From sequence record MZ501075: a stretch of 64,000 bases of DNA; one strand, 5' to 3'. Below, in pieces: positions 2,070 through 33,668 of the stretch. The position numbers were made by a program, and so were the translations under genes. The DNA is from Escherichia phage IrisVonRoten. Numbering within the stretch: position 1 is the first letter of the stretch; the number at the start of each line of letters is the position of its first letter. Below the pieces are notes generated by a model, which searched no databases, had not been told where the DNA came from, and saw nothing but the letters and a program-made list of their open reading frames with translations.

Positions 2070-2563
2070 AATTTTATTCTAAGTCTAGGAATTTCAGGCT
2101 CCTCTTGATGGACTTGATAAATAACAGGGCTATTATTTATCAGGATATAGCTTATATAAGCTGGAACGTAGGATAATACAAATGGATAAGGGACTTTAGC
2201 CACATAGCATTGGTATTTTCCATTATAAATTCTAGCTGAATGCAAAACTTTAGAGGTGACAACATCATAGAACGTAGTTTTCTTCCAATTAATAAGATTT
2301 CCATCAGAATCTATAAATTGGTTACGCTTTGACCCAACTAATTGAGACAACATTGATATTCTACCCCTAATAGGATAGAGCTTATAGGGTAATTCTTTCC
2401 GTTTCTCAAATAGAATAAGCCTACGTTGAGAAAACGTGCCAGGCAACTTCCTGTTATCTAGCACATATTTATTATATCTTGTTGTAATTACGGAATAATC
2501 ACCTTCTTGCTCAATTGATACAAACGCCCGTAACGCATAGACGGGCAATTTGAAATTAAGCAC
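2066..2563 (-). CDS. hypothetical protein
   Basis: 165-aa ORF, start overlaps polymerase stop. Confidence 0.45.
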   Translation of the reverse strand: MLNFKLPVYALRAFVSIEQEGDYSVITTRYNKYVLDNRKLPGTFSQRRLILFEKRKELPYKLYPIRGRISMLSQLVGSKRNQFIDSDGNLINWKKTTFYDVVTSKVLHSARIYNGKYQCYVAKVPYPFVLSYVPAYISYILINNSPVIYQVHQEEPEIPRLRIKL

Positions 2564-5123
2564 CGAGAATCCTTTTCACGTTATCCAGATCTTTACATAC
2601 AGCAATAAACTTATCATCCTTGTACTTGCTGTGGTCTGGATGCTCTTTATCCATCGCAGCTAATTTCTTATACTCGAAATCTGCATCAAGTAGCATTTCT
2701 TTAACGTAACGAGTATATTCGTCATCATCAATACAAGCGATTGATGGGTGCTGTTTCTTCATCTTACCACAAGAATAGTCACGAGAACCTCCAGCTTCAG
2801 AATCTGAATCAATACCAATCGGACAGCCAGGAATACTGATACCACGGTCTTTCTGAATATTACGAATCAGGATTTCATTGTATTGGTCGATCAAATCCTC
2901 ACGAACAATAGCAACTACGGAGTCATGAACCAGCATAACAATCTTCATCTCTTGTTCTAAACCAAGAGAAATGATTTCATTATCTGCATCTACAGCACCT
3001 AAAAGGAGACTATCAGAAGAAGCAGACTGAATGATTGCGTTAAATCCAGAACGAATTTCTTCACCCTGAACGCCACGGTCCTCGGAGTGGATATTATGTA
3101 GACGACGTTTGCGACCAAAGTGACTATAGATAAATCCATGATTCTTGATCTGATCGTGGCACTTATCAATCCAACGCTTAAGCTGTGGGAATTGACTAAA
3201 GTAAGTCTCAATGTACTCTTTAGCATCTGCAACAGTACATTCAACAAACGGTTCACCAGTTTTGGCTGCTTGTTCGAGCAATGCTTCGTTAACAGAATGT
3301 GCTACTTTAGCCGGGCCAGAACCATACAAAATACCAAAGGTAATTGCCTTAGCTGCCTGACGTAGAGCTGGGAACAGCTTCTTAACATCACGAGGTTCAC
3401 ATTGCAATTTAAATACCATGTGGGCGATGTTAGAGTGGAAGTCAGGGTATTTATCAGGTTCATTTCTCATGTTGATAAATACTTGTTGCATATTTCTATC
3501 ACCAGATAGAACAGCAGCATAATAAACTTCCGCAGTTGTTAAGTCCCATGCGATTACACGGTATCCAGGTGGTGCAACTACACAACCCTTAATGATAGAT
3601 TCATCACGGGGTAACTGTTGCAGGTTCAGTTTACCAGAAGAACTCAGACGACCAGAAGTAGTCATGTGTTCGTGGAAACCAGTACGAATGCAACCATCAG
3701 CATCAATGCTCAGAAGAATCTTCTCAACGTAAGTAGAGATCAGCTTAGTCAGCTTACGAATCTCTAGTAGAGTCTTAGCAATTGGATGCTGTGTAGACAA
3801 TTCGTTCAGAGCTTCTGCGTCTGTAGAGTCTGCTCCAGTATCCGTCAATTTACCCGTTGGAGTTAAGCCAACATAATCAAACAGAAGAACACGGAGTTGT
3901 TTAACAGAGTTTGGGTTAAACGCTTCGTTCTGATCTTTCTCTAGCTGAACGACTTCTGGATAAGTATACAGCTTTTCACGAGCTTTATTCAGATTATGGG
4001 TTAACTGGTACTGAGCTTCTTTTAAACGATCAATAGAAATAGGTACACCACGATCCTCAACACGCTGGAGAAATACACAACCAGGCATTAGGACATCATA
4101 ATACAGACTGCAAAGTTTTTCATTCTTCTCAATTTTTGGTAAGAAGAAGTTGTGCAAACGTATGGTGGCATCGGTATCTTTTGCAGCGTAAGGCCACATA
4201 ATATCAAACGGAATTAAATCATAGGTGAAATCTTCTTTCTTGATTTTATGTGCTTTGCAGTAATCATCTTTGAACTTATCTAGTTCAAAGTCATAGTCAC
4301 CCATATCTGTATACTTCATTGCTAGAGATTTCAAGCCATGAGTACCACGACGCTCATCTAGAACATAATGCTGCAACATTGTATCATGGAGTCTGCGTTC
4401 TTTATGTGCTTTATCAAAAGTAAGTCCCAGATGGTACTTATAAAAGTGCATATCAAACTTCAAGTTGTGAAAAACAATAGTGTGGTTTTCACTATCCAGA
4501 ATTTTCTGGAGATAATATACTGCAACCTCTGTGAGACAATCAGAATCGATATATACACCCTGATACTCTTGGTGAGATATAGAAACACCAAGCAGATAAC
4601 CATCTCGACAGTATAGTGCTGAGGTTTCGGAGTCGAATGCGACAGGTCCGATAACCATATTATACACCATCTTGATATATTCTTCTGCCTCATCAGGGTC
4701 AGTAATAGGGCGGTAATCACCAGCTTTTGCAATCTTCTCACGACCATTGATAATATCGTGGATATTCTCTACTGTTGCATCAAAAACTGGTTTCATTTCA
4801 GGTTTAAAGTGTAACTGGGCTGGGCTGATACTCGCAATCCAGTTAGCATATCCATTATACTCTACACGTTTACCGGTATAATCACCAATACCTTTCTTAC
4901 CTGCAAAGTACAAGAAAGGTTCGGCACCTACCAGTATAACAAAATCATAGTCACTCGGGTCAAATGGGTTTTCCGGAGTCCCGATAGTAATATGCTTTTT
5001 GAGCAAACGACCGGACAACTTCTCGTTACACATATGGAATACATCAACTTCCTCGCCGTATAGCTGGAAATGTTTATCATAACGAGTGTTGTTTAGAGCT
5101 TTATCAACTACTGCGATTTTCAA
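2556..5123 (-). CDS. DNA polymerase, family A, with 3'-5' exonuclease domain
   Basis: Exo I motif FDSETSAL, motif B RQAAKAITFGILYG, motif C LVHDS. Confidence 0.9.
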   Translation of the reverse strand: MKIAVVDKALNNTRYDKHFQLYGEEVDVFHMCNEKLSGRLLKKHITIGTPENPFDPSDYDFVILVGAEPFLYFAGKKGIGDYTGKRVEYNGYANWIASISPAQLHFKPEMKPVFDATVENIHDIINGREKIAKAGDYRPITDPDEAEEYIKMVYNMVIGPVAFDSETSALYCRDGYLLGVSISHQEYQGVYIDSDCLTEVAVYYLQKILDSENHTIVFHNLKFDMHFYKYHLGLTFDKAHKERRLHDTMLQHYVLDERRGTHGLKSLAMKYTDMGDYDFELDKFKDDYCKAHKIKKEDFTYDLIPFDIMWPYAAKDTDATIRLHNFFLPKIEKNEKLCSLYYDVLMPGCVFLQRVEDRGVPISIDRLKEAQYQLTHNLNKAREKLYTYPEVVQLEKDQNEAFNPNSVKQLRVLLFDYVGLTPTGKLTDTGADSTDAEALNELSTQHPIAKTLLEIRKLTKLISTYVEKILLSIDADGCIRTGFHEHMTTSGRLSSSGKLNLQQLPRDESIIKGCVVAPPGYRVIAWDLTTAEVYYAAVLSGDRNMQQVFINMRNEPDKYPDFHSNIAHMVFKLQCEPRDVKKLFPALRQAAKAITFGILYGSGPAKVAHSVNEALLEQAAKTGEPFVECTVADAKEYIETYFSQFPQLKRWIDKCHDQIKNHGFIYSHFGRKRRLHNIHSEDRGVQGEEIRSGFNAIIQSASSDSLLLGAVDADNEIISLGLEQEMKIVMLVHDSVVAIVREDLIDQYNEILIRNIQKDRGISIPGCPIGIDSDSEAGGSRDYSCGKMKKQHPSIACIDDDEYTRYVKEMLLDADFEYKKLAAMDKEHPDHSKYKDDKFIAVCKDLDNVKRILGA

Positions 5124-29359: not shown

Positions 29360-29644
29360 ATGCGAATTTATAACTCAAATTCATTAGGATTTAAACCGTT
29401 GAGAAAACGTGCACAATCACCTCGTCAAATAAGAAAGGCTAATATTGGTGAGCCAGAAACACGTCTTCCACCTCCTCCAGAACAACGTTTAGTTTATCTG
29501 GATGAAGAATTAGCTGAACGCGAAGGAAAAGCTCAAGAAGAGATTGAGCGTAAGAAAATGTGTACTGCTCCAGCCTACTCCAAAGGGGCTTATCAGTATA
29601 TCTATACAGCCGAAGAGGCTAAAGATGCGGGGCGTAAAAAATGA
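29360..29644 (+). CDS. hypothetical protein
   Basis: Strong GTGAGGAGG SD. Confidence 0.55.
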   Translation: MRIYNSNSLGFKPLRKRAQSPRQIRKANIGEPETRLPPPPEQRLVYLDEELAEREGKAQEEIERKKMCTAPAYSKGAYQYIYTAEEAKDAGRKK

Positions 29645-30090
29645 AGATTACTGAATTTAAAGGTGCTTATAGTTTCTTATCTAACTTTTATTTATCACCA
29701 ATTACTTTCGAATATCTAAATGAAATATGGCATGCTGATACTGTAGAACATGCTTTTCAGGCTATGAAATCCGACCAAAAAGATGATGTAGCTCATGTAC
29801 TACGCTCCCTAAATGCAGGAGTTGCTAAACGTAGAGGACGTAAATTAACTCTACGCTCTGACTGGGATAAGGTAAAAGATGATGTAATGCTAGAGCTTTT
29901 ACGGTTAAAGTTTGCAATCCCTGATTTGAGAGATAAACTGTTAGCAACAGAAAATGCAACTTTGATTGAAGGAAATACCTGGGGAGATACATATTGGGGT
30001 GTTTGCCGAGGCATCGGGGATAATACTTTAGGAGTTCTTTTGATGCAGGTAAGGTCTGAAATTAAAAGAAGCTTACAGTTAATAAATTAA
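29641..30090 (+). CDS. NADAR / YbiA-like (DUF1768) protein
   Basis: GAYSFLSNFY...HAFQAMK...NTLGVLLMQVR pattern typical of the YbiA/NADAR family. Confidence 0.65.
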   Translation: MKITEFKGAYSFLSNFYLSPITFEYLNEIWHADTVEHAFQAMKSDQKDDVAHVLRSLNAGVAKRRGRKLTLRSDWDKVKDDVMLELLRLKFAIPDLRDKLLATENATLIEGNTWGDTYWGVCRGIGDNTLGVLLMQVRSEIKRSLQLIN

Positions 30091-30098
30091 AAATTCAT

Positions 30099-30127
30099 TT
30101 GCTAAACGCTTCAAATTCTCGTATAAT
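30099..30127 (+). promoter_or_regulatory. T5-type early promoter
   Basis: TTGCTA, 17-bp spacer, TATAAT. Confidence 0.7.
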
Positions 30128-30165
30128 ATACTTCATAAATTGATAAACAAAAAGGAAAACAAATA

Positions 30166-30681
30166 ATGGCTAAGCAGAAAAACGCAAAAACTCAAGCAGC
30201 TACTACAGTTAAAACTTTCCCGCAGACTGAGGCTAACCGCAAAGCTCGTCTGGAACGCCATCTGCGCAAGCACCCTACTGATGCTCAAGCTGCACAGGCA
30301 CTGAATCGTCCGGCTCCGATTCGTCAAAAGCCGAAGGCTAAGAATGCTACTCGTTCTGTAGCCCGCCTTGTGACCTATGTACAGGGTTATGGCCACAAAT
30401 CTGTTCCAGTAACACTGAGTTTCAATGCTGGAGCTGAATTGTTCTCTCGTAATGGCATGGCCATGAAAGATTATGAGAAAGCAGTTAACCAGAAGCGTAA
30501 ACCAACGGCAGATGTACTGCGTGATACTCGCGGACAGTTCGGTTCTGTTAAACCAAATATCTTTGGTGTAGAATATAGCAAAGATAACGTTCGTGCTCTG
30601 TGTTATGGTGTGGGGATTAAATTCACAGGCGATTCTGCTCGTAAATCTGCTAAACCAGCTCGCAAGCGTAAAGCGAAGTAA
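30166..30681 (+). CDS. highly basic protein, possible nucleic-acid binding
   Basis: Lys/Arg-rich 171-aa ORF with preferred codons; own promoter and GNRA hairpin after stop. Confidence 0.6.
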   Translation: MAKQKNAKTQAATTVKTFPQTEANRKARLERHLRKHPTDAQAAQALNRPAPIRQKPKAKNATRSVARLVTYVQGYGHKSVPVTLSFNAGAELFSRNGMAMKDYEKAVNQKRKPTADVLRDTRGQFGSVKPNIFGVEYSKDNVRALCYGVGIKFTGDSARKSAKPARKRKAK

Positions 30682-30687
30682 TAGATA

Positions 30688-30701
30688 GGGGCGAAAGCCC
30701 C
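30688..30701 (+). repeat. GGGGCGAAAGCCCC GNRA-tetraloop hairpin (copy 1)
   Basis: Same hairpin recurs at 30966-30980 after the next gene. Confidence 0.6.
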
Positions 30702-30740
30702 TACAGTCAACTAATTCTCTAACCAATCCAGGATATTTTT

Positions 30741-30956
30741 ATGTTCTCTAAGAAACCACGTTCCGTTACTGAAATCGTTGCTTCCTTTACTACTATTACT
30801 GATGAACTTCAAGCTCGTATTGAGGCTGATCAGAAAATTGCTGCTGATATTCAGAAACAGCAGGAAGAACTCGCTCTGAAGTTGGCTGAAACCAACAAGA
30901 GCGAAAAATCTGCCCAAACTATTATGGAAAATATCCTTAAACTGCTTGGCAAGTAA
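30741..30956 (+). CDS. hypothetical coiled-coil protein
   Basis: 71-aa ORF. Confidence 0.5.
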   Translation: MFSKKPRSVTEIVASFTTITDELQARIEADQKIAADIQKQQEELALKLAETNKSEKSAQTIMENILKLLGK

Positions 30957-30965
30957 TTTAAATCA

Positions 30966-30986
30966 GGGGGCGAAAGCCCCTCTTAT
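30966..30986 (+). terminator. GGGGGCGAAAGCCCC hairpin + T-rich tract (copy 2)
   Basis: Hairpin followed by TCTTATTT. Confidence 0.6.
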
Positions 30987-30997
30987 TTGGAGAAATT

Positions 30998-31234
30998 ATG
31001 CGTAATTTTGTAGCAAAGAATGATTTTAACCGTGCTAGCACTCATAAGTCCGCTAGAGATTATACACGACTTTCTAGTCATGAGGTAATGGATACCTGTT
31101 ATGAAGAGCTGGAAGGTAGTTGGAATGAATGGCCTGACTTCTCTATGGAAGAGAACTGGGATGTCAGTGAGGATATGCTTCCTGGTTTCAAAGACCCCAA
31201 GAAGTGGGAGTCTATTAAAGAGACAGCTCTTTAA
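30998..31234 (+). CDS. hypothetical acidic protein
   Basis: 78-aa ORF. Confidence 0.5.
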   Translation: MRNFVAKNDFNRASTHKSARDYTRLSSHEVMDTCYEELEGSWNEWPDFSMEENWDVSEDMLPGFKDPKKWESIKETAL

Positions 31235-31262
31235 TAGTTTTCTACACAATAAAGGATAAGTT

Positions 31263-31964
31263 ATGAAAGTAAAACCATTTGGTATGCTAGATATTGAATC
31301 TCTAGGAACTCCAGGAGATTGTGGTACTACTCATATCGCAATGCCTTCTTTCGCTTTTGTGGCTATGCACGGAATTGATAAAGACCCTGATCTAGTGTTT
31401 GTTACTTTGGATGTACAAGATCAGCTTAACTCTGGAGCTAAAGTTACGGCATCTACTCTAGCATTCTGGATGGATCAAGCTAAGAATAGCCCATCAGCTC
31501 TACATATTATGGAAGCTATGAAGGAATGCAATCCAAAGCTGATTGCTTTTCAAGATGGTAAACATCACTGTACTAATAAGCTAGGCTCTAACTATGCAGC
31601 TTATTCTATGGCTAAAAACATTATGGAGTTGGCTCTAGGTGAGAATGCTTTGTATTATGGCAATGGCCCAGAGTTTGATATGACTATCTACTCTGCAAAC
31701 ACTTTCCATGCTGGAACCAATGAAGAAATAGTTCCGTGGAAATTCTGGAACTTAGGCAATGTTCGATCTCTCCGCAATCTCTGGATGCAGGCTGGTTATA
31801 GTTACAAAGACCTAGAAGCAGAGGGAATTAGCTGGGCAAAAGCTAAGATGGAGAAGATGGACACTATTCGTTATGGGATCTATCCGGTTAAGCATGATCC
31901 AGCATTCGATGCCTTAGTTGAGAGCTATTGTGTTGCAGCTATGGTCGAAAAAATCAAAATTTGA
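31263..31964 (+). CDS. DEDDh-family 3'-5' exonuclease (DnaQ-like)
   Basis: Exo I MLDIESLG and Exo III HDPAFDA motifs. Confidence 0.6.
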   Translation: MKVKPFGMLDIESLGTPGDCGTTHIAMPSFAFVAMHGIDKDPDLVFVTLDVQDQLNSGAKVTASTLAFWMDQAKNSPSALHIMEAMKECNPKLIAFQDGKHHCTNKLGSNYAAYSMAKNIMELALGENALYYGNGPEFDMTIYSANTFHAGTNEEIVPWKFWNLGNVRSLRNLWMQAGYSYKDLEAEGISWAKAKMEKMDTIRYGIYPVKHDPAFDALVESYCVAAMVEKIKI

Positions 31965-31965
31965 T

Positions 31966-31994
31966 TTGCTTCCAGCTTCAAAATTCTGTATAAT
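31966..31994 (+). promoter_or_regulatory. T5-type early promoter
   Basis: TTGCTT, 17-bp spacer, TATAAT. Confidence 0.7.
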
Positions 31995-32034
31995 ATACTC
32001 ATAAATTTGAGAAAACAACAAAAGGAAAACAAAT

Positions 32035-32217
32035 ATGCCAGTATCTAAAAATGTTCGTAAAAATGGTAAGAAAGCTACTCGTAATCTGGGTATTCGTCGT
32101 ATGGCTGAACGTCAATCAGGTGTCCAGAAAATCTTTGATATGCTAAATCGTGCTAATCCTAAAATTGATAACAGTAAAGATACTGTTCTGCGTACCTTAC
32201 TGGCAATGGGTCTGTAA
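32035..32217 (+). CDS. hypothetical small basic protein
   Basis: 60-aa ORF after promoter and AAAAGGAAAA SD. Confidence 0.5.
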   Translation: MPVSKNVRKNGKKATRNLGIRRMAERQSGVQKIFDMLNRANPKIDNSKDTVLRTLLAMGL

Positions 32218-32269
32218 TAGACCAACTTTAAACAAATTCAAATCTTAAACTTCATATAAGGAAGAAACA

Positions 32270-32908
32270 ATGACCACTCGTATTTCTAAAACTCGTGCTC
32301 TAGCAACTATCAAATCTCTGGAAGCTAAAATCCGTAAAGCTACTGAACAGCAGCTTCTGATCGCTGTTGGTGAAGGTAAGGATAAAAACCAGGTTGTAGT
32401 TGGCGCTGCAATCGAAGTAGCTGATCTGTCTACTCGTATTAAGACTGATTTCCAGTCTCTGCTGGATATGATGTCCCAGCGTGATCGTATCAAAGCTGCT
32501 CTGATTAAGAGCAATGCGGAAACAATCGTTGAGATTGGCTCTCGTAAGATGACTGTTGCGGAAGCAATTGAAGCTAAGCGTTCTATGGAGCTTAAAGCTC
32601 AGCTGCTGGCTAACATGCGTAAGCAGTTCCATGCCGCTACGGTTAAGTTTAATACGCAGAAAGCACAGTTTGATGCTAAATATGAGCGTTTGCAGGATAG
32701 CATGGCTACCCGCGATAAGAAAACTTCCGAAGATGAAGTTAAAATGCAGCTCAACCTGCTGGAACTCAAGAATACTCCATTCTTGATTGATCCGCTGGAA
32801 CTGGAAAAGCTGATTAAGCAGCATGACGAGGAATATCAGGACTTTGCAACAAATGTTGACTTTGTTCTGTCCGAGTCTAACGCCTCTACCTTCATTGAAG
32901 TAGAGTAA
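32270..32908 (+). CDS. hypothetical coiled-coil protein
   Basis: 212-aa ORF. Confidence 0.6.
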   Translation: MTTRISKTRALATIKSLEAKIRKATEQQLLIAVGEGKDKNQVVVGAAIEVADLSTRIKTDFQSLLDMMSQRDRIKAALIKSNAETIVEIGSRKMTVAEAIEAKRSMELKAQLLANMRKQFHAATVKFNTQKAQFDAKYERLQDSMATRDKKTSEDEVKMQLNLLELKNTPFLIDPLELEKLIKQHDEEYQDFATNVDFVLSESNASTFIEVE

Positions 32909-33291
32909 TAATTTAAAAGCTAGTAAATCGGTAGACGAAAGCCCAAGCATCTTACCTCGCAGCAGCGGTTGAAATACGAGGTTAAATAAGACCGCTGACC
33001 ATACTATAAAGTATAATCTATTGGAGATTATGTTTATTACATCAGACATTTAATCTGACACGTAAAAACAAAGCGTCGTTGATATTACCGACACAACTTC
33101 AAAGATCAACATTTAAGTATGAAAGCTGAAAAGTTTAAAGAACTCAAACTTCTAAACTTCTAAAGCTAAAAGATGCAAAGTATTCGTTGATGATTCAAAC
33201 CCTAGATCAAAGGTACATGGCTCATAAGATATGGCCTGTGGCGCCTCTAGGCTGTTTATCGGTTTACTAGTTTCACAATTTAAAAATGTAT

Positions 33292-33320
33292 TTGCTAATT
33301 TATTAAGTTATCTGTATAAT
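33292..33320 (+). promoter_or_regulatory. T5-type early promoter
   Basis: TTGCTA, 17-bp spacer, TATAAT. Confidence 0.7.
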
Positions 33321-33350
33321 ATATTTTTAAATTGATGAAACGAGGCTATT

Positions 33351-33668
33351 ATGACTTTTCATATTTTGATTGATGATGTGCGTAATCTTCACGGAATGGA
33401 CATTATCATTCGAACCCCAGAAGCCGCTGTAGAGTTTCTGAATAAAACTGATACCACAGGCCACTTCGTTTATATGGATAATGACTTGGCTGTAGATGGT
33501 ATGGAAGGTTATCAAATTCTTCGTTTACTCTTAGAATTTGGGCAGAGACCAAAGAAAGTGGTACTAGTAACCTCGAACCCAGTAGCTAAGCAAAATATGC
33601 GTAATGATTTGCTTGACTTAGGGTATAAAGAAAATCCCAATCGTGTTGAATATGATTGGCAGGAGTAA
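33351..33668 (+). CDS. hypothetical protein
   Basis: 105-aa ORF after promoter. Confidence 0.55.
   Translation: MTFHILIDDVRNLHGMDIIIRTPEAAVEFLNKTDTTGHFVYMDNDLAVDGMEGYQILRLLLEFGQRPKKVVLVTSNPVAKQNMRNDLLDLGYKENPNRVEYDWQE

What the first reader, a model, noticed from the sequence alone, without database searches (positions are those of the whole stretch)
31263..31964. DEDDh 3'-5' exonuclease of unknown substrate
Exo I (MLDIESLG) and Exo III (HDPAFDA) motifs indicate a DnaQ/oligoribonuclease-like exonuclease encoded apart from the polymerase. It could act in nucleotide recycling or degrade host signalling oligonucleotides; the substrate cannot be read from sequence.
Basis: partly seen in the sequence, partly recalled or inferred. 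Interest (0 to 1): 0.35.

Follow-up and report, generated by a model that had tools for sequence, protein, structure and literature searches.

The report
Phage T5-type DEDDh 3'-5' exonuclease
The ORF is a real, intact DEDDh 3'-5' exonuclease, the orthologue of phage T5 gene T5.087; the gene is already catalogued (often mislabelled "metallopeptidase"), its substrate is still untested, and it sits behind a conserved RNA hairpin and a small partner peptide.

Summary
Window 31263-31964 (+) is a 233-aa ORF with all five DEDDh catalytic residues.

The window is a T5-like phage (Demerecviridae) and the gene is the orthologue of T5.087. The protein passes the Pfam threshold for PF16473 (Rv2179c-like), the family that also holds T4 DexA. 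It shares non-catalytic family motifs with DexA.

New anatomy:
- A 78-aa ORF (T5.088, weak DUF7230 match) always lies directly upstream and is fused to the exonuclease in Klebsiella T5-like phages.
- A covariation-supported hairpin covers its stop codons about 25 nt before the exonuclease start.
- A few DUF7230 peptides in other phages carry an ArfA-type ribosome-rescue motif, but homology to ArfA was not significant.

Verdict: an ordinary, uncharacterised member of a known nuclease family. The most likely role is an accessory single-strand 3'-end exonuclease.

The parts
31263..31964 (+). Exonuclease gene (233 aa plus stop), the orthologue of phage T5 T5.087 (YP_006915.1)
   Evidence: ORF list. 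The region is 95-97% identical at DNA level to T5-like phages, and tblastn gives 94-97% protein identity. T5 annotation. Pfam PF16473 3.1e-8, 34 bits against a 27-bit cut-off. PHROG 255 at 6e-52. AF2 pLDDT 88.4.
31284..31307 (+). Exo I motif MLDIESLG, with catalytic D10 (31290-31292) and E12 (31296-31298)
   Evidence: Invariant in A1. D and E are present in 147 of 147 aligned family members.
31452..31472 (+). Family motif S-T-L-A-F-W-M (T65, F68, W69), non-catalytic and shared with T4 DexA (STIEWW)
   Evidence: Invariant T65, F68 and W69 in A1. In the wider family T is 149/155, [FW] is 155/155 and W is 155/155. Aligned to DexA by hhalign.
31656..31682 (+). Exo II motif YGNGPEFDM, with catalytic D139 (31677-31679)
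   Evidence: G133, N134, G135, F138 and D139 are invariant. D139 is 173/173.
31734..31766 (+). Family motif P-W-K-F-W-N-L-G-N-V-R (P158, W162, R168), shared with DexA (PCKFWNQRDIR). Probably part of the substrate-binding surface (inference).
   Evidence: R168 is 172/173 in the family, and DexA has K, F, W, N and R in the same columns.
31893..31913 (+). Exo III motif HDPAFDA, with general-base H211 (31893-31895) and D216 (31908-31910). This defines the DEDDh rather than the DEDDy subclass.
   Evidence: H211, D216, A217, L218 and E220 are invariant.
30998..31234 (+). Upstream partner ORF (78 aa), the orthologue of T5.088. It has the N-terminal motif RNxVAKxDFNRxxxH followed by an acidic tail. 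It is fused to the exonuclease in Klebsiella T5-like phages.
   Evidence: Weak DUF7230 match, 21.4 bits, below the 27-bit cut-off. It lies directly upstream of the exonuclease in L001, L004, L005 and L007. Fused in P0015, P0017, P0021, P0022 and P0023 and in Roth49. The profile search found 100 relatives, all short peptides with only phage names given.
31204..31245 (+). Conserved RNA hairpin. The core stem is 31212-31222 / 31227-31237 with loop ACAG. Its 3' arm contains the stop codons TAA (31232-31234) and TAG (31235-31237) of the upstream ORF. A T-rich tail follows.
   Evidence: Terminator-like scan. MFE folds in five lineages with different stem sequences. RNAalifold gives 9 of 16 pairs with compensatory changes. 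89.9% of cells are paired against 44-55% when slid, and 0/500 shuffles reach the observed covariation.
31251..31256 (+). Shine-Dalgarno-like AAAGGA, 6 nt before the exonuclease ATG. It is retained as an in-frame ..NKG.. with a downstream ATG inside the fused genes.
   Evidence: Read directly from the sequence.
30099..30127 (+). Sigma-70-type promoter (TTGCTA-17-TATAAT) upstream of the DUF7022 gene. It corresponds to T5 promoter P-H 207 and is the probable source of transcripts reaching the exonuclease (inference).
   Evidence: Promoter scan. T5 annotation. No other + strand promoter-like site lies between 30167 and 31629.
30966..30981 (+). GC-rich terminator-like hairpin GGGGGCGAAAGCCCCT just before the partner ORF. 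Transcription must read through it to reach the exonuclease. A second copy lies at 30685-30704.
   Evidence: Annotated as a putative terminator in phage HASG4. A single copy sits at the same place in T5.

Best explanation
The ORF encodes an active Mg2+-dependent DEDDh 3'-5' exonuclease of the Rv2179c/DexA family (Pfam PF16473). It is the orthologue of phage T5 early gene T5.087.

Mechanism (inferred from the family). D10, E12, D139 and D216 hold two metal ions. H211 activates the attacking water. Nucleoside 5'-monophosphates are removed one at a time from a free single-stranded 3'-OH end. The conserved aromatic and basic residues F68, W69, F161, W162 and R168 hold the terminal nucleotides.

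Most likely biological role. It is a dispensable accessory nuclease of the early DNA-metabolism block (nrdA-nrdB-frd-thy-rnh...). It would trim single-stranded 3' tails and short oligonucleotides, with DNA the favoured substrate by analogy with T4 DexA, for example during recombination or homing-endonuclease repair. Activity on RNA 3' ends is not excluded.

Expression (inferred). It appears to be set by read-through of a GC-rich terminator and of a conserved AU-rich hairpin that overlaps the stop codons of the upstream T5.088-like ORF.

Shown here: gene identity, intact catalytic and family motifs, predicted fold, conserved synteny, the fusion and the hairpin. Inferred: enzymatic activity, substrate, role and the regulatory meaning of the hairpin.
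For: - All five catalytic residues are invariant.
- PF16473 scores above its gathering cut-off, and PHROG 255 'exonuclease' gives 6e-52.
- T4 DexA itself is PF16473 at 2.4e-22. It aligns to this family's profile at E 8.8e-5, including the non-catalytic motifs TxxFW and PxKFWN...R.
- The gene keeps its place downstream of nrdA, nrdB, frd, thy and rnh in Demerecviridae down to 26% identity.
- T5.087 is not among the Fit or named Semi-Fit genes in the T5 CRISPRi-ART screen, which is consistent with an accessory role (10.1101/2023.09.18.558157 supplement).
- The hairpin shows covariation.
Against: - No biochemical or genetic data exist for any member of this subfamily.
- Identity to DexA is only 15%, and hhalign probability is only 60%.
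- Foldseek ranks RNase T first and does not list DexA in its top hits.
- The family's founding member, Rv2179c, is described as an exoribonuclease (Pfam description).
- T5 is reported not to reuse host nucleotides, so DexA's scavenging role does not transfer.
- The partner and fused N-terminal peptide has no known link to DNA metabolism, and its only hint points to the ribosome.
- The CRISPRi-ART authors warn of low precision outside the T5 pre-early region.
Confidence: 0.5

Rival explanations
1. It is a 3'-5' exoribonuclease that works with the upstream T5.088 peptide. In this reading T5.088 is an ArfA-like, ribosome-directed peptide. As a separate subunit, or as the N-terminal domain in Klebsiella T5-like phages, it brings the nuclease to stalled or non-stop ribosomes or to RNA 3' ends, where the nuclease trims mRNA or tRNA 3' ends. 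Such a function would help a phage whose host or competitors cleave mRNAs and tRNAs.
For: - The family is named for the exoribonuclease Rv2179c. Foldseek's best solved matches are RNase T.
- The T5.088-like ORF is always directly upstream. It is fused in-frame to the exonuclease in a clade whose members are only 53-84% identical to each other, so the fusion is maintained.
- Three DUF7230 peptides (P0261, P0273, P0277) join the same N-terminal motif to the ArfA motif KGKGSYxRKxKH. P0261 passes both Pfam cut-offs.
- E. coli ArfA gives a weak in-register DUF7230 match, 13 bits at E 0.11.
- The fused N-terminus is predicted to be disordered and not docked on the nuclease (pLDDT 27-56). From memory, free ArfA behaves the same way.
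- A conserved hairpin lies at the 3' end of the small ORF. From memory (Garza-Sanchez 2011; Schaub 2012), this recalls the arfA mRNA hairpin that yields non-stop mRNA.
- tRNA genes, a cREC domain and a NADAR domain lie nearby.
Against: - Homology of DUF7230 to ArfA is not statistically supported. hmmsearch scores are 0-3 bits, and hhalign gives E 0.2-0.7 and probability below 1%.
- The window's ORF lacks the basic KGKGSY/RK/KH motif (it has KSARDYTR) and continues into an acidic tail, which is poorly suited to an rRNA-lined channel.
- Its own DUF7230 score is below the cut-off.
- In phages outside Demerecviridae, DUF7230 genes are not next to any exonuclease and lack the stop-codon hairpin.
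- Synteny within one phage family is weak evidence for a functional link.
Confidence: 0.2
2. It is an anti-defence nuclease. It would remove a host immune nucleic acid that has a free 3' end, such as linear oligoadenylate or pNpN signalling intermediates, retron msDNA, or primer or guide oligonucleotides.
For: - Neighbouring accessory genes (NADAR at 29641-30090, cREC at 33351-33668) belong to conflict-type domain families.
- A bacterial DexA homologue acts in phage defence (PMC12153337), showing that this family is used in phage-host conflict.
- The apparent dispensability in a laboratory host fits a conditional role.
Against: - There is no PADLOC match, and no literature links T5.087 to any defence system.
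- From established enzymology, DEDDh exonucleases need a free 3'-OH, so cyclic oligonucleotides are not direct substrates.
- The gene is a conserved, fixed-position gene across Demerecviridae rather than a variable accessory gene.
Confidence: 0.1
3. It is a metallopeptidase, as most GenBank records of T5-like phages annotate it.
For: Many records carry the label 'metallopeptidase'. The T5 record's note cites a match to InterPro IPR000834. From memory, that is the peptidase M14 entry.
Against: - No peptidase family appears in the Pfam scan even at E up to 1; the only hit is PF16473.
- The predicted fold matches DEDDh nucleases only.
- The invariant residues are the DEDDh set.
- RefSeq now names T5.087 'exonuclease'.
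Confidence: 0.01

Closest known systems
Phage T5 T5.087 (YP_006915.1, 'exonuclease') and PHROG 255
   Same: It is the same gene. Protein identity to T5-like phages is 94-97%, and length, position and neighbours match. PHROG 255 scores 6e-52.
   Different: There are no differences of substance. This phage has an extra insertion of about 275 bp (a 71-aa ORF) two genes upstream, which T5 lacks. T5.087 itself has never been characterised.
T4 DexA (exonuclease A; PDB 8kel)
   Different: Identity is only 15%, and hhalign probability is 60%. The T5-type protein has an extra beta-hairpin (residues about 92-106) and extra helices (about 181-204). DexA's scavenging and 5hmC-DNA roles have no obvious counterpart, because T5 does not reuse host nucleotides and, from general knowledge, its DNA is unmodified. 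DexA has no DUF7230 partner.
Mycobacterium tuberculosis Rv2179c (PDB 4hec), the founding member of PF16473
   Different: It is a bacterial protein of about 155-170 residues, described as an exoribonuclease. No direct sequence hit to it was found in the PDB searches with the protein or with its profile.
E. coli RNase T and oligoribonuclease / REXO2
   Different: There is no sequence-level match: PF00929 is not hit. TM-scores are only about 0.5. Whether this protein forms the dimer on which those enzymes depend could not be tested.
ArfA (alternative ribosome-rescue factor A, PF03889); this applies to the upstream partner ORF, not to the nuclease
   Same: Both are short and probably disordered peptides. 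Three relatives of the partner carry the ArfA motif KGKGSYxRKxKH. A hairpin lies at the 3' end of the ORF.
   Different: The window's ORF lacks that motif and has an acidic tail. Profile comparisons with ArfA are not significant.

Membership tests
DEDDh (DnaQ-like) 3'-5' exonuclease superfamily | Exo I motif D-x-E | tested here: met
   D10 and E12 are invariant in 25 of 25 sequences and in 147 of 147 aligned family members.
DEDDh (DnaQ-like) 3'-5' exonuclease superfamily | Exo II aspartate | tested here: met
   D139 in GNGPEFD is invariant and is 173/173 in the family.
DEDDh (DnaQ-like) 3'-5' exonuclease superfamily | Exo III motif H-x4-D (histidine rather than tyrosine as general base) | tested here: met
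   H211 and D216 are invariant and are 56/57 where the C-terminus aligned.
DEDDh (DnaQ-like) 3'-5' exonuclease superfamily | RNase H-like alpha/beta fold of the exonuclease domain | tested here: met
DEDDh (DnaQ-like) 3'-5' exonuclease superfamily | Metal-dependent 3'-5' exonuclease activity | not testable with these tools
   This requires a nuclease assay.
Pfam PF16473 (Rv2179c-like; includes T4 DexA) | Profile score above the curated gathering cut-off | tested here: met
   34.0 bits against a 27-bit cut-off, E 3.1e-8, covering residues 8-180. T4 DexA scores 79.9 bits.
Pfam PF16473 (Rv2179c-like; includes T4 DexA) | Non-catalytic family motifs (T-x-x-[FW]-W after Exo I; P-x-K-[FY]-W-N...R after Exo II) | tested here: met
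   T65, F68, W69, P158, K160, F161, W162, N163 and R168 are conserved, and DexA carries K, F, W, N and R in the same columns.
Pfam PF16473 (Rv2179c-like; includes T4 DexA) | Homo-oligomeric (dimer or tetramer) active form, as reported for DexA | not testable with these tools
   Only monomer prediction was available. DexA oligomer states are described in PMC12153337.
T4 DexA-type function (ssDNA exonuclease for host-DNA scavenging and homing) | Close sequence relationship to DexA | tested here: inconclusive
T4 DexA-type function (ssDNA exonuclease for host-DNA scavenging and homing) | A phage that reuses host DNA breakdown products | tested here: not met
   This was a literature check, not a computation. 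T5 is reported to synthesise its nucleotides de novo (10.64898/2026.04.02.716235).
Peptidase M14 / 'metallopeptidase' (the common database label) | Match to a peptidase profile or fold | tested here: not met
   No peptidase family appears at E up to 1 in Pfam. There is no NCBIfam hit. Fold searches return nucleases only.
ArfA (PF03889), for the upstream partner ORF 30998-31234 | Match to the ArfA profile, or the KGKGSYxRKxKH motif | tested here: not met
   The only Pfam hit is a sub-threshold DUF7230 match. The sequence at that place is KSARDYTR.
ArfA (PF03889), for the upstream partner ORF 30998-31234 | Profile-level homology between DUF7230 and ArfA | tested here: inconclusive
   hmmsearch scores are 0-3 bits. 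hhalign gives E 0.18-0.73. However, three mosaic peptides exist, and E. coli ArfA gives a 13-bit in-register DUF7230 hit. The ArfA alignment used held only enterobacterial sequences.
ArfA (PF03889), for the upstream partner ORF 30998-31234 | Binding to the empty mRNA channel of stalled ribosomes and recruitment of RF2 | not testable with these tools
   This requires ribosome-binding or rescue assays.

The most novel reading that the evidence does not exclude
T5.088 and T5.087 form a two-part module, fused into one protein in Klebsiella T5-like phages. An ArfA-derived, ribosome-directed peptide would deliver a DEDDh exoribonuclease to stalled or non-stop translation complexes. The conserved hairpin over the small ORF's stop codons would couple production of the module to the state of translation. 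This would be a phage-encoded ribosome-rescue or mRNA 3'-trimming device of a kind not described before.
Probability: 0.1. Interest if true: 0.75.

Novelty: new member of a known kind. Interest (0 to 1): 0.3.

Why it matters
As it stands, the result mainly corrects the record. A conserved gene of T5-like phages (present in all five lineages examined down to 26% identity) that most GenBank entries call a 'metallopeptidase' is a DEDDh 3'-5' exonuclease of the DexA/Rv2179c family. T5-like phages therefore carry a free-standing 3'-5' exonuclease in addition to the polymerase's proofreading domain.

Its substrate is a fair open question, because the family contains both DNA and RNA enzymes. The conserved hairpin and the split-or-fused partner peptide give concrete handles for experiments. 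If the partner proved to be ribosome-directed, the pair would be a new type of phage translation-rescue or RNA-trimming module. On present evidence that is a minority possibility.

Tried and rejected
- Direct and profile searches of PDB sequences gave only chance hits: designed armadillo repeats through a 27-residue stretch, and PCNA at E about 1. These were rejected.
- NCBIfam and PADLOC gave no hits for the nuclease, the partner ORF or a fused homologue.
- Literature searches for T5.087, DUF7230, phage plus Rv2179c, DEDDh anti-defence, phage-encoded ArfA, and T5 escape mutants found nothing about this gene. The Rv2179c founding paper could not be fetched.
- I asked whether T5.088 and T5.087 could be joined in this phage by a frameshift. 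They cannot. The small ORF ends in TAA TAG, and the nuclease frame has its own TAA two codons before the ATG. The resemblance of the overlapping frame (..FLHNKG*) to the fused linker (..FNNKG..) reflects DNA-level homology around the retained Shine-Dalgarno sequence.
- ArfA homology of the partner ORF was tested three ways and was not significant.
- I asked whether the DUF7230-exonuclease pairing or the stop-codon hairpin recurs outside Demerecviridae. It does not. The DUF7230 genes there sit near terminase or spanin genes and lack the hairpin.
- An Rfam scan of 29800-33400 found no known RNA family; the one match is a sub-threshold chance hit.
- AF2 of a fused homologue did not dock the N-terminal peptide onto the nuclease, so it gives no evidence for a structural complex.
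- The fold searches disagree on the nearest solved structure, so 'closest structure' was not used to assign a substrate.

Full report
**1. The observation**

Window 31263-31964 (+) is an ATG-initiated ORF of 233 codons plus stop. An AAAGGA Shine-Dalgarno sequence lies 6 nt upstream. MLDIESLG is residues 8-15 and HDPAFDA is residues 211-217.

I also aligned 177 proteins, from a word-indexed search and an exhaustive profile search of 1.84 billion representatives, to the family profile. No aligned sequence lacks D10, E12 or D139, and H211 and D216 are present in 56 of 57 sequences whose C-terminus aligned.

The gene is real. tblastn finds it in 580 phage records.

**2. What genome and which gene**

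The 3.5 kb around the ORF is 95-97% identical to Tequintavirus genomes, that is, T5-like Escherichia and Salmonella phages. In the T5 reference the orthologue is T5.087 (YP_006915.1). RefSeq now names it 'exonuclease', and a note records that it was 'identified by match to InterPro family IPR000834'. That note, which from memory is the peptidase M14 entry, is presumably the source of the label 'metallopeptidase' that most T5-like records still carry.

The label is wrong. The only Pfam family hit at E up to 1 is PF16473, 'Rv2179c-like 3'-5' exoribonuclease' (34 bits, cut-off 27). PHROG 255 'exonuclease' scores 6e-52. The predicted fold matches nucleases only.

The phage's family-A DNA polymerase, with its own PF01612 proofreading domain, is 26 kb away on the other strand at 2556-5123. 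The nuclease is therefore indeed free-standing.

**3. Family and fold**

T4 DexA (exonuclease A) scores 2.4e-22 on the same Pfam model. PF16473 thus contains both a phage ssDNA exonuclease and the mycobacterial exoribonuclease Rv2179c.

The T5.087 profile aligns to DexA at E 8.8e-5 with 60% probability. The alignment includes two non-catalytic motifs that are near-invariant across the family. One is T65-x-x-[FW]68-W69. The other is P158-x-K-F-W-N...R168, matching DexA PCKFWNQRDIR.

The T5.087-type subfamily is small. Twelve 50%-identity representatives score below 1e-30 and 33 below 1e-10. It grades into 861 more distant proteins, among the listed ones mostly about 165-250 residues long.

The fold is therefore generic DEDDh. 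It does not discriminate between DNA and RNA substrates.

**4. Surroundings**

The gene lies in the early region, downstream of nrdA, nrdB, frd, thy and an RNase HI gene. Next come a NADAR-domain gene (29641-30090) and a very basic DUF7022 protein (30166-30681). After the nuclease come two small ORFs, a cREC receiver-domain gene (33351-33668) and a cell-wall hydrolase.

The same order holds in Demerecviridae contigs whose nuclease is only 26-40% identical.

A sigma-70-type promoter at 30099-30127 corresponds to T5 promoter P-H 207. No other + strand promoter-like site lies before the nuclease. A GC-rich terminator-like hairpin at 30966-30981 must be read through to reach it.

Compared with T5, this phage has an insertion of about 275 bp. 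It carries a 71-aa ORF (30741-30956) flanked by two copies of that GC hairpin.

**5. A conserved partner ORF that is sometimes fused**

Directly upstream (30998-31234) is a 78-aa ORF, the orthologue of T5.088. Its N-terminus, MRNFVAKNDFNRASTHKSARDYTR, is followed by an acidic tail. It gives a sub-threshold match to Pfam DUF7230 (21.4 bits, cut-off 27).

A homologous small ORF occupies the same position in every Demerecviridae locus examined.

In Klebsiella T5-like phages the two reading frames are one gene of 324-334 codons. Examples are Roth49, annotated '3' exoribonuclease', and clusters P0015, P0017, P0021, P0022 and P0023. No separate DUF7230 ORF is annotated upstream in Roth49. These fused proteins are only 53-84% identical to one another, so the fusion has been maintained over considerable divergence. 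That argues for a functional link.

The internal AAAGGA-N-ATG is retained in frame in the fused genes, so a short form may also be made there (inference).

AlphaFold2 of a fused protein leaves residues 1-84 at pLDDT 27-56 and does not dock them on the nuclease domain.

**6. A conserved hairpin between the two ORFs**

A stem-loop (core 31212-31237, CTATTAAAGAG-ACAG-CTCTTTAATAG; extended 31204-31245) overlaps the end of the small ORF. Its stop codons TAA and TAG lie in the 3' arm, and a T-rich tail follows.

The same hairpin occurs at the same place in ten distinct sequence variants from lineages as far as 26% nuclease identity. The stem sequences differ, for example TCTACCAATA/TATTGGTAGA, TCTAGCAATAAG/CTTATTGCTAGA and GCTTAACAAT/ATTGTTAAGC.

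RNAalifold finds compensatory double changes in 9 of 16 pairs. On that alignment 89.9% of cells pair, against 44-55% when the partner is slid by 1-3 columns. The covariation score is 0.46 against 0.10-0.18, and none of 500 shuffles reaches it.

In the fused genes the hairpin persists, but the TAG is out of frame and the T-tract is absent.

What the hairpin does was not tested. It could be a weak terminator or attenuator sensitive to translation of the small ORF, an RNase III site, or a translational coupling device. No Rfam family matches it.

**7. The ArfA lead**

A profile search with the small ORF found 100 short peptides, all short peptides with only phage names given. Three of them (P0261, P0273, P0277, on contigs with T4-type spanin and NAMPT genes) join the same N-terminal motif to KKGKGSYxRKxKHK. 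That is the signature of the alternative ribosome-rescue factor ArfA. P0261 passes the gathering cut-offs of both PF03889 (ArfA) and DUF7230. E. coli ArfA gives a weak, in-register DUF7230 match of 13 bits at E 0.11.

However, a DUF7230 profile without the three mosaics scores ArfA at only 0-3 bits. hhalign gives E 0.18-0.73. The window's ORF lacks the basic motif.

In phages outside Demerecviridae, DUF7230 genes are not next to an exonuclease and lack the stop-codon hairpin.

The idea that T5.088 is a ribosome-directed peptide that targets the nuclease to RNA is therefore a lead. It is not a finding.

**8. Function**

No paper in the searchable library mentions T5.087. In the genome-wide CRISPRi-ART screen of T5, the neighbours T5.084, T5.089 and T5.090 were 'Fit'. 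T5.087 and T5.088 are not among the Fit or named Semi-Fit genes. The authors caution that precision was low outside the pre-early region. The gene therefore looks dispensable in a laboratory host, as dexA is in T4.

[quoted passage not shown] T5 is reported to make its nucleotides de novo rather than reuse host DNA, so scavenging is unlikely to be the role here.

My best reading, at confidence about 0.5, is an accessory single-strand 3'-end exonuclease of the early DNA-metabolism block. It would trim 3' ssDNA tails and oligonucleotides, for example in recombination or homing repair.

The rivals are:
- An RNA 3' exonuclease, possibly partnered with a ribosome-directed T5.088 (about 0.2).
- An anti-defence nuclease acting on linear immune oligonucleotides or msDNA (about 0.1).
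- A metallopeptidase (about 0.01).

The remainder covers a promiscuous or otherwise unanticipated role.

**9. Verdict**

Its functional suggestions remain untested, and the signalling-nucleotide idea has no support.

The finding is an uncharacterised but catalogued member of a known nuclease family. The added value of this second look is in four points:
- the correction of the widespread 'metallopeptidase' label;
- the placement in the DexA/Rv2179c family;
- the split-or-fused DUF7230 partner;
- the covariation-supported hairpin that precedes the gene.

Noticed in passing
window 31204-31245 (+): A conserved hairpin overlaps the stop codons (TAA TAG) of the T5.088-like ORF, about 25 nt before the exonuclease start. 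Its stem covaries across Demerecviridae. It persists in frame, with the TAG out of frame, inside the fused genes of Klebsiella T5-like phages. It is not annotated in T5 or HASG4.
   Followed up: yes
window 30998-31234 (+); loci L002 3728-4732, L043, L044: The 78-aa T5.088-like ORF (weak DUF7230 match) is always directly upstream of the exonuclease. In a Klebsiella-phage clade it is fused to it into one protein of 324-334 aa.
   Followed up: yes
L008 3599-3721, L009 867-989, L010 1262-1405 (phage contigs with T4-type spanin, NUDIX and NAMPT genes): Phage peptides of 40-47 aa combine the DUF7230 N-terminal motif with the ArfA ribosome-rescue motif KGKGSYxRKxKH. One passes the ArfA Pfam cut-off. 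Two literature searches (DUF7230; ArfA with 'ribosome rescue' and 'phage-encoded') gave no evident report of phage-encoded ArfA-like peptides.
   Followed up: partly
window 30685-30981 (+): An insertion of about 275 bp relative to T5 carries a 71-aa ORF (30741-30956). It is flanked by two copies of the GC-rich hairpin GGGGCGAAAGCCCC, of which T5 has one copy at this place. It looks like a small moron inserted at a terminator. It is also present in phage HASG4.
   Followed up: partly
window 31263-31964 and homologues in GenBank: Most T5-like phage records call this gene 'metallopeptidase'. The label apparently spread from an old InterPro IPR000834 match noted in the T5 record. UniRef even attaches it to the neighbouring small ORF.
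   Followed up: yes
window 29641-30090, 30166-30681, 33351-33668 (+): The neighbours are a NADAR-domain protein, a very basic DUF7022 protein and a cREC (cyclic-phosphate processing receiver) domain protein. The T5 orthologues T5.089 (DUF7022), T5.090 and T5.084 (cREC) were 'Fit' genes of unknown function in the T5 CRISPRi-ART screen.
   Followed up: no
window 32270-32908 (+): The orthologue of T5.085 is annotated 'tail fiber protein' in RefSeq and many records. Yet it lies in the early region, has no Pfam match, and is a 212-aa ORF with no other characterisation here. The annotation looks doubtful.
   Followed up: no
window 31101-31259 (+): A 52-aa ORF lies in the same frame as the exonuclease and overlaps the end of the T5.088-like ORF. 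It ends ...FLHNKG* two codons before the exonuclease ATG. It resembles the linker (...FNNKG..M) of the fused genes, apparently a DNA-level relic of the fused/unfused junction around the Shine-Dalgarno sequence. It is not a coding ORF.
   Followed up: partly
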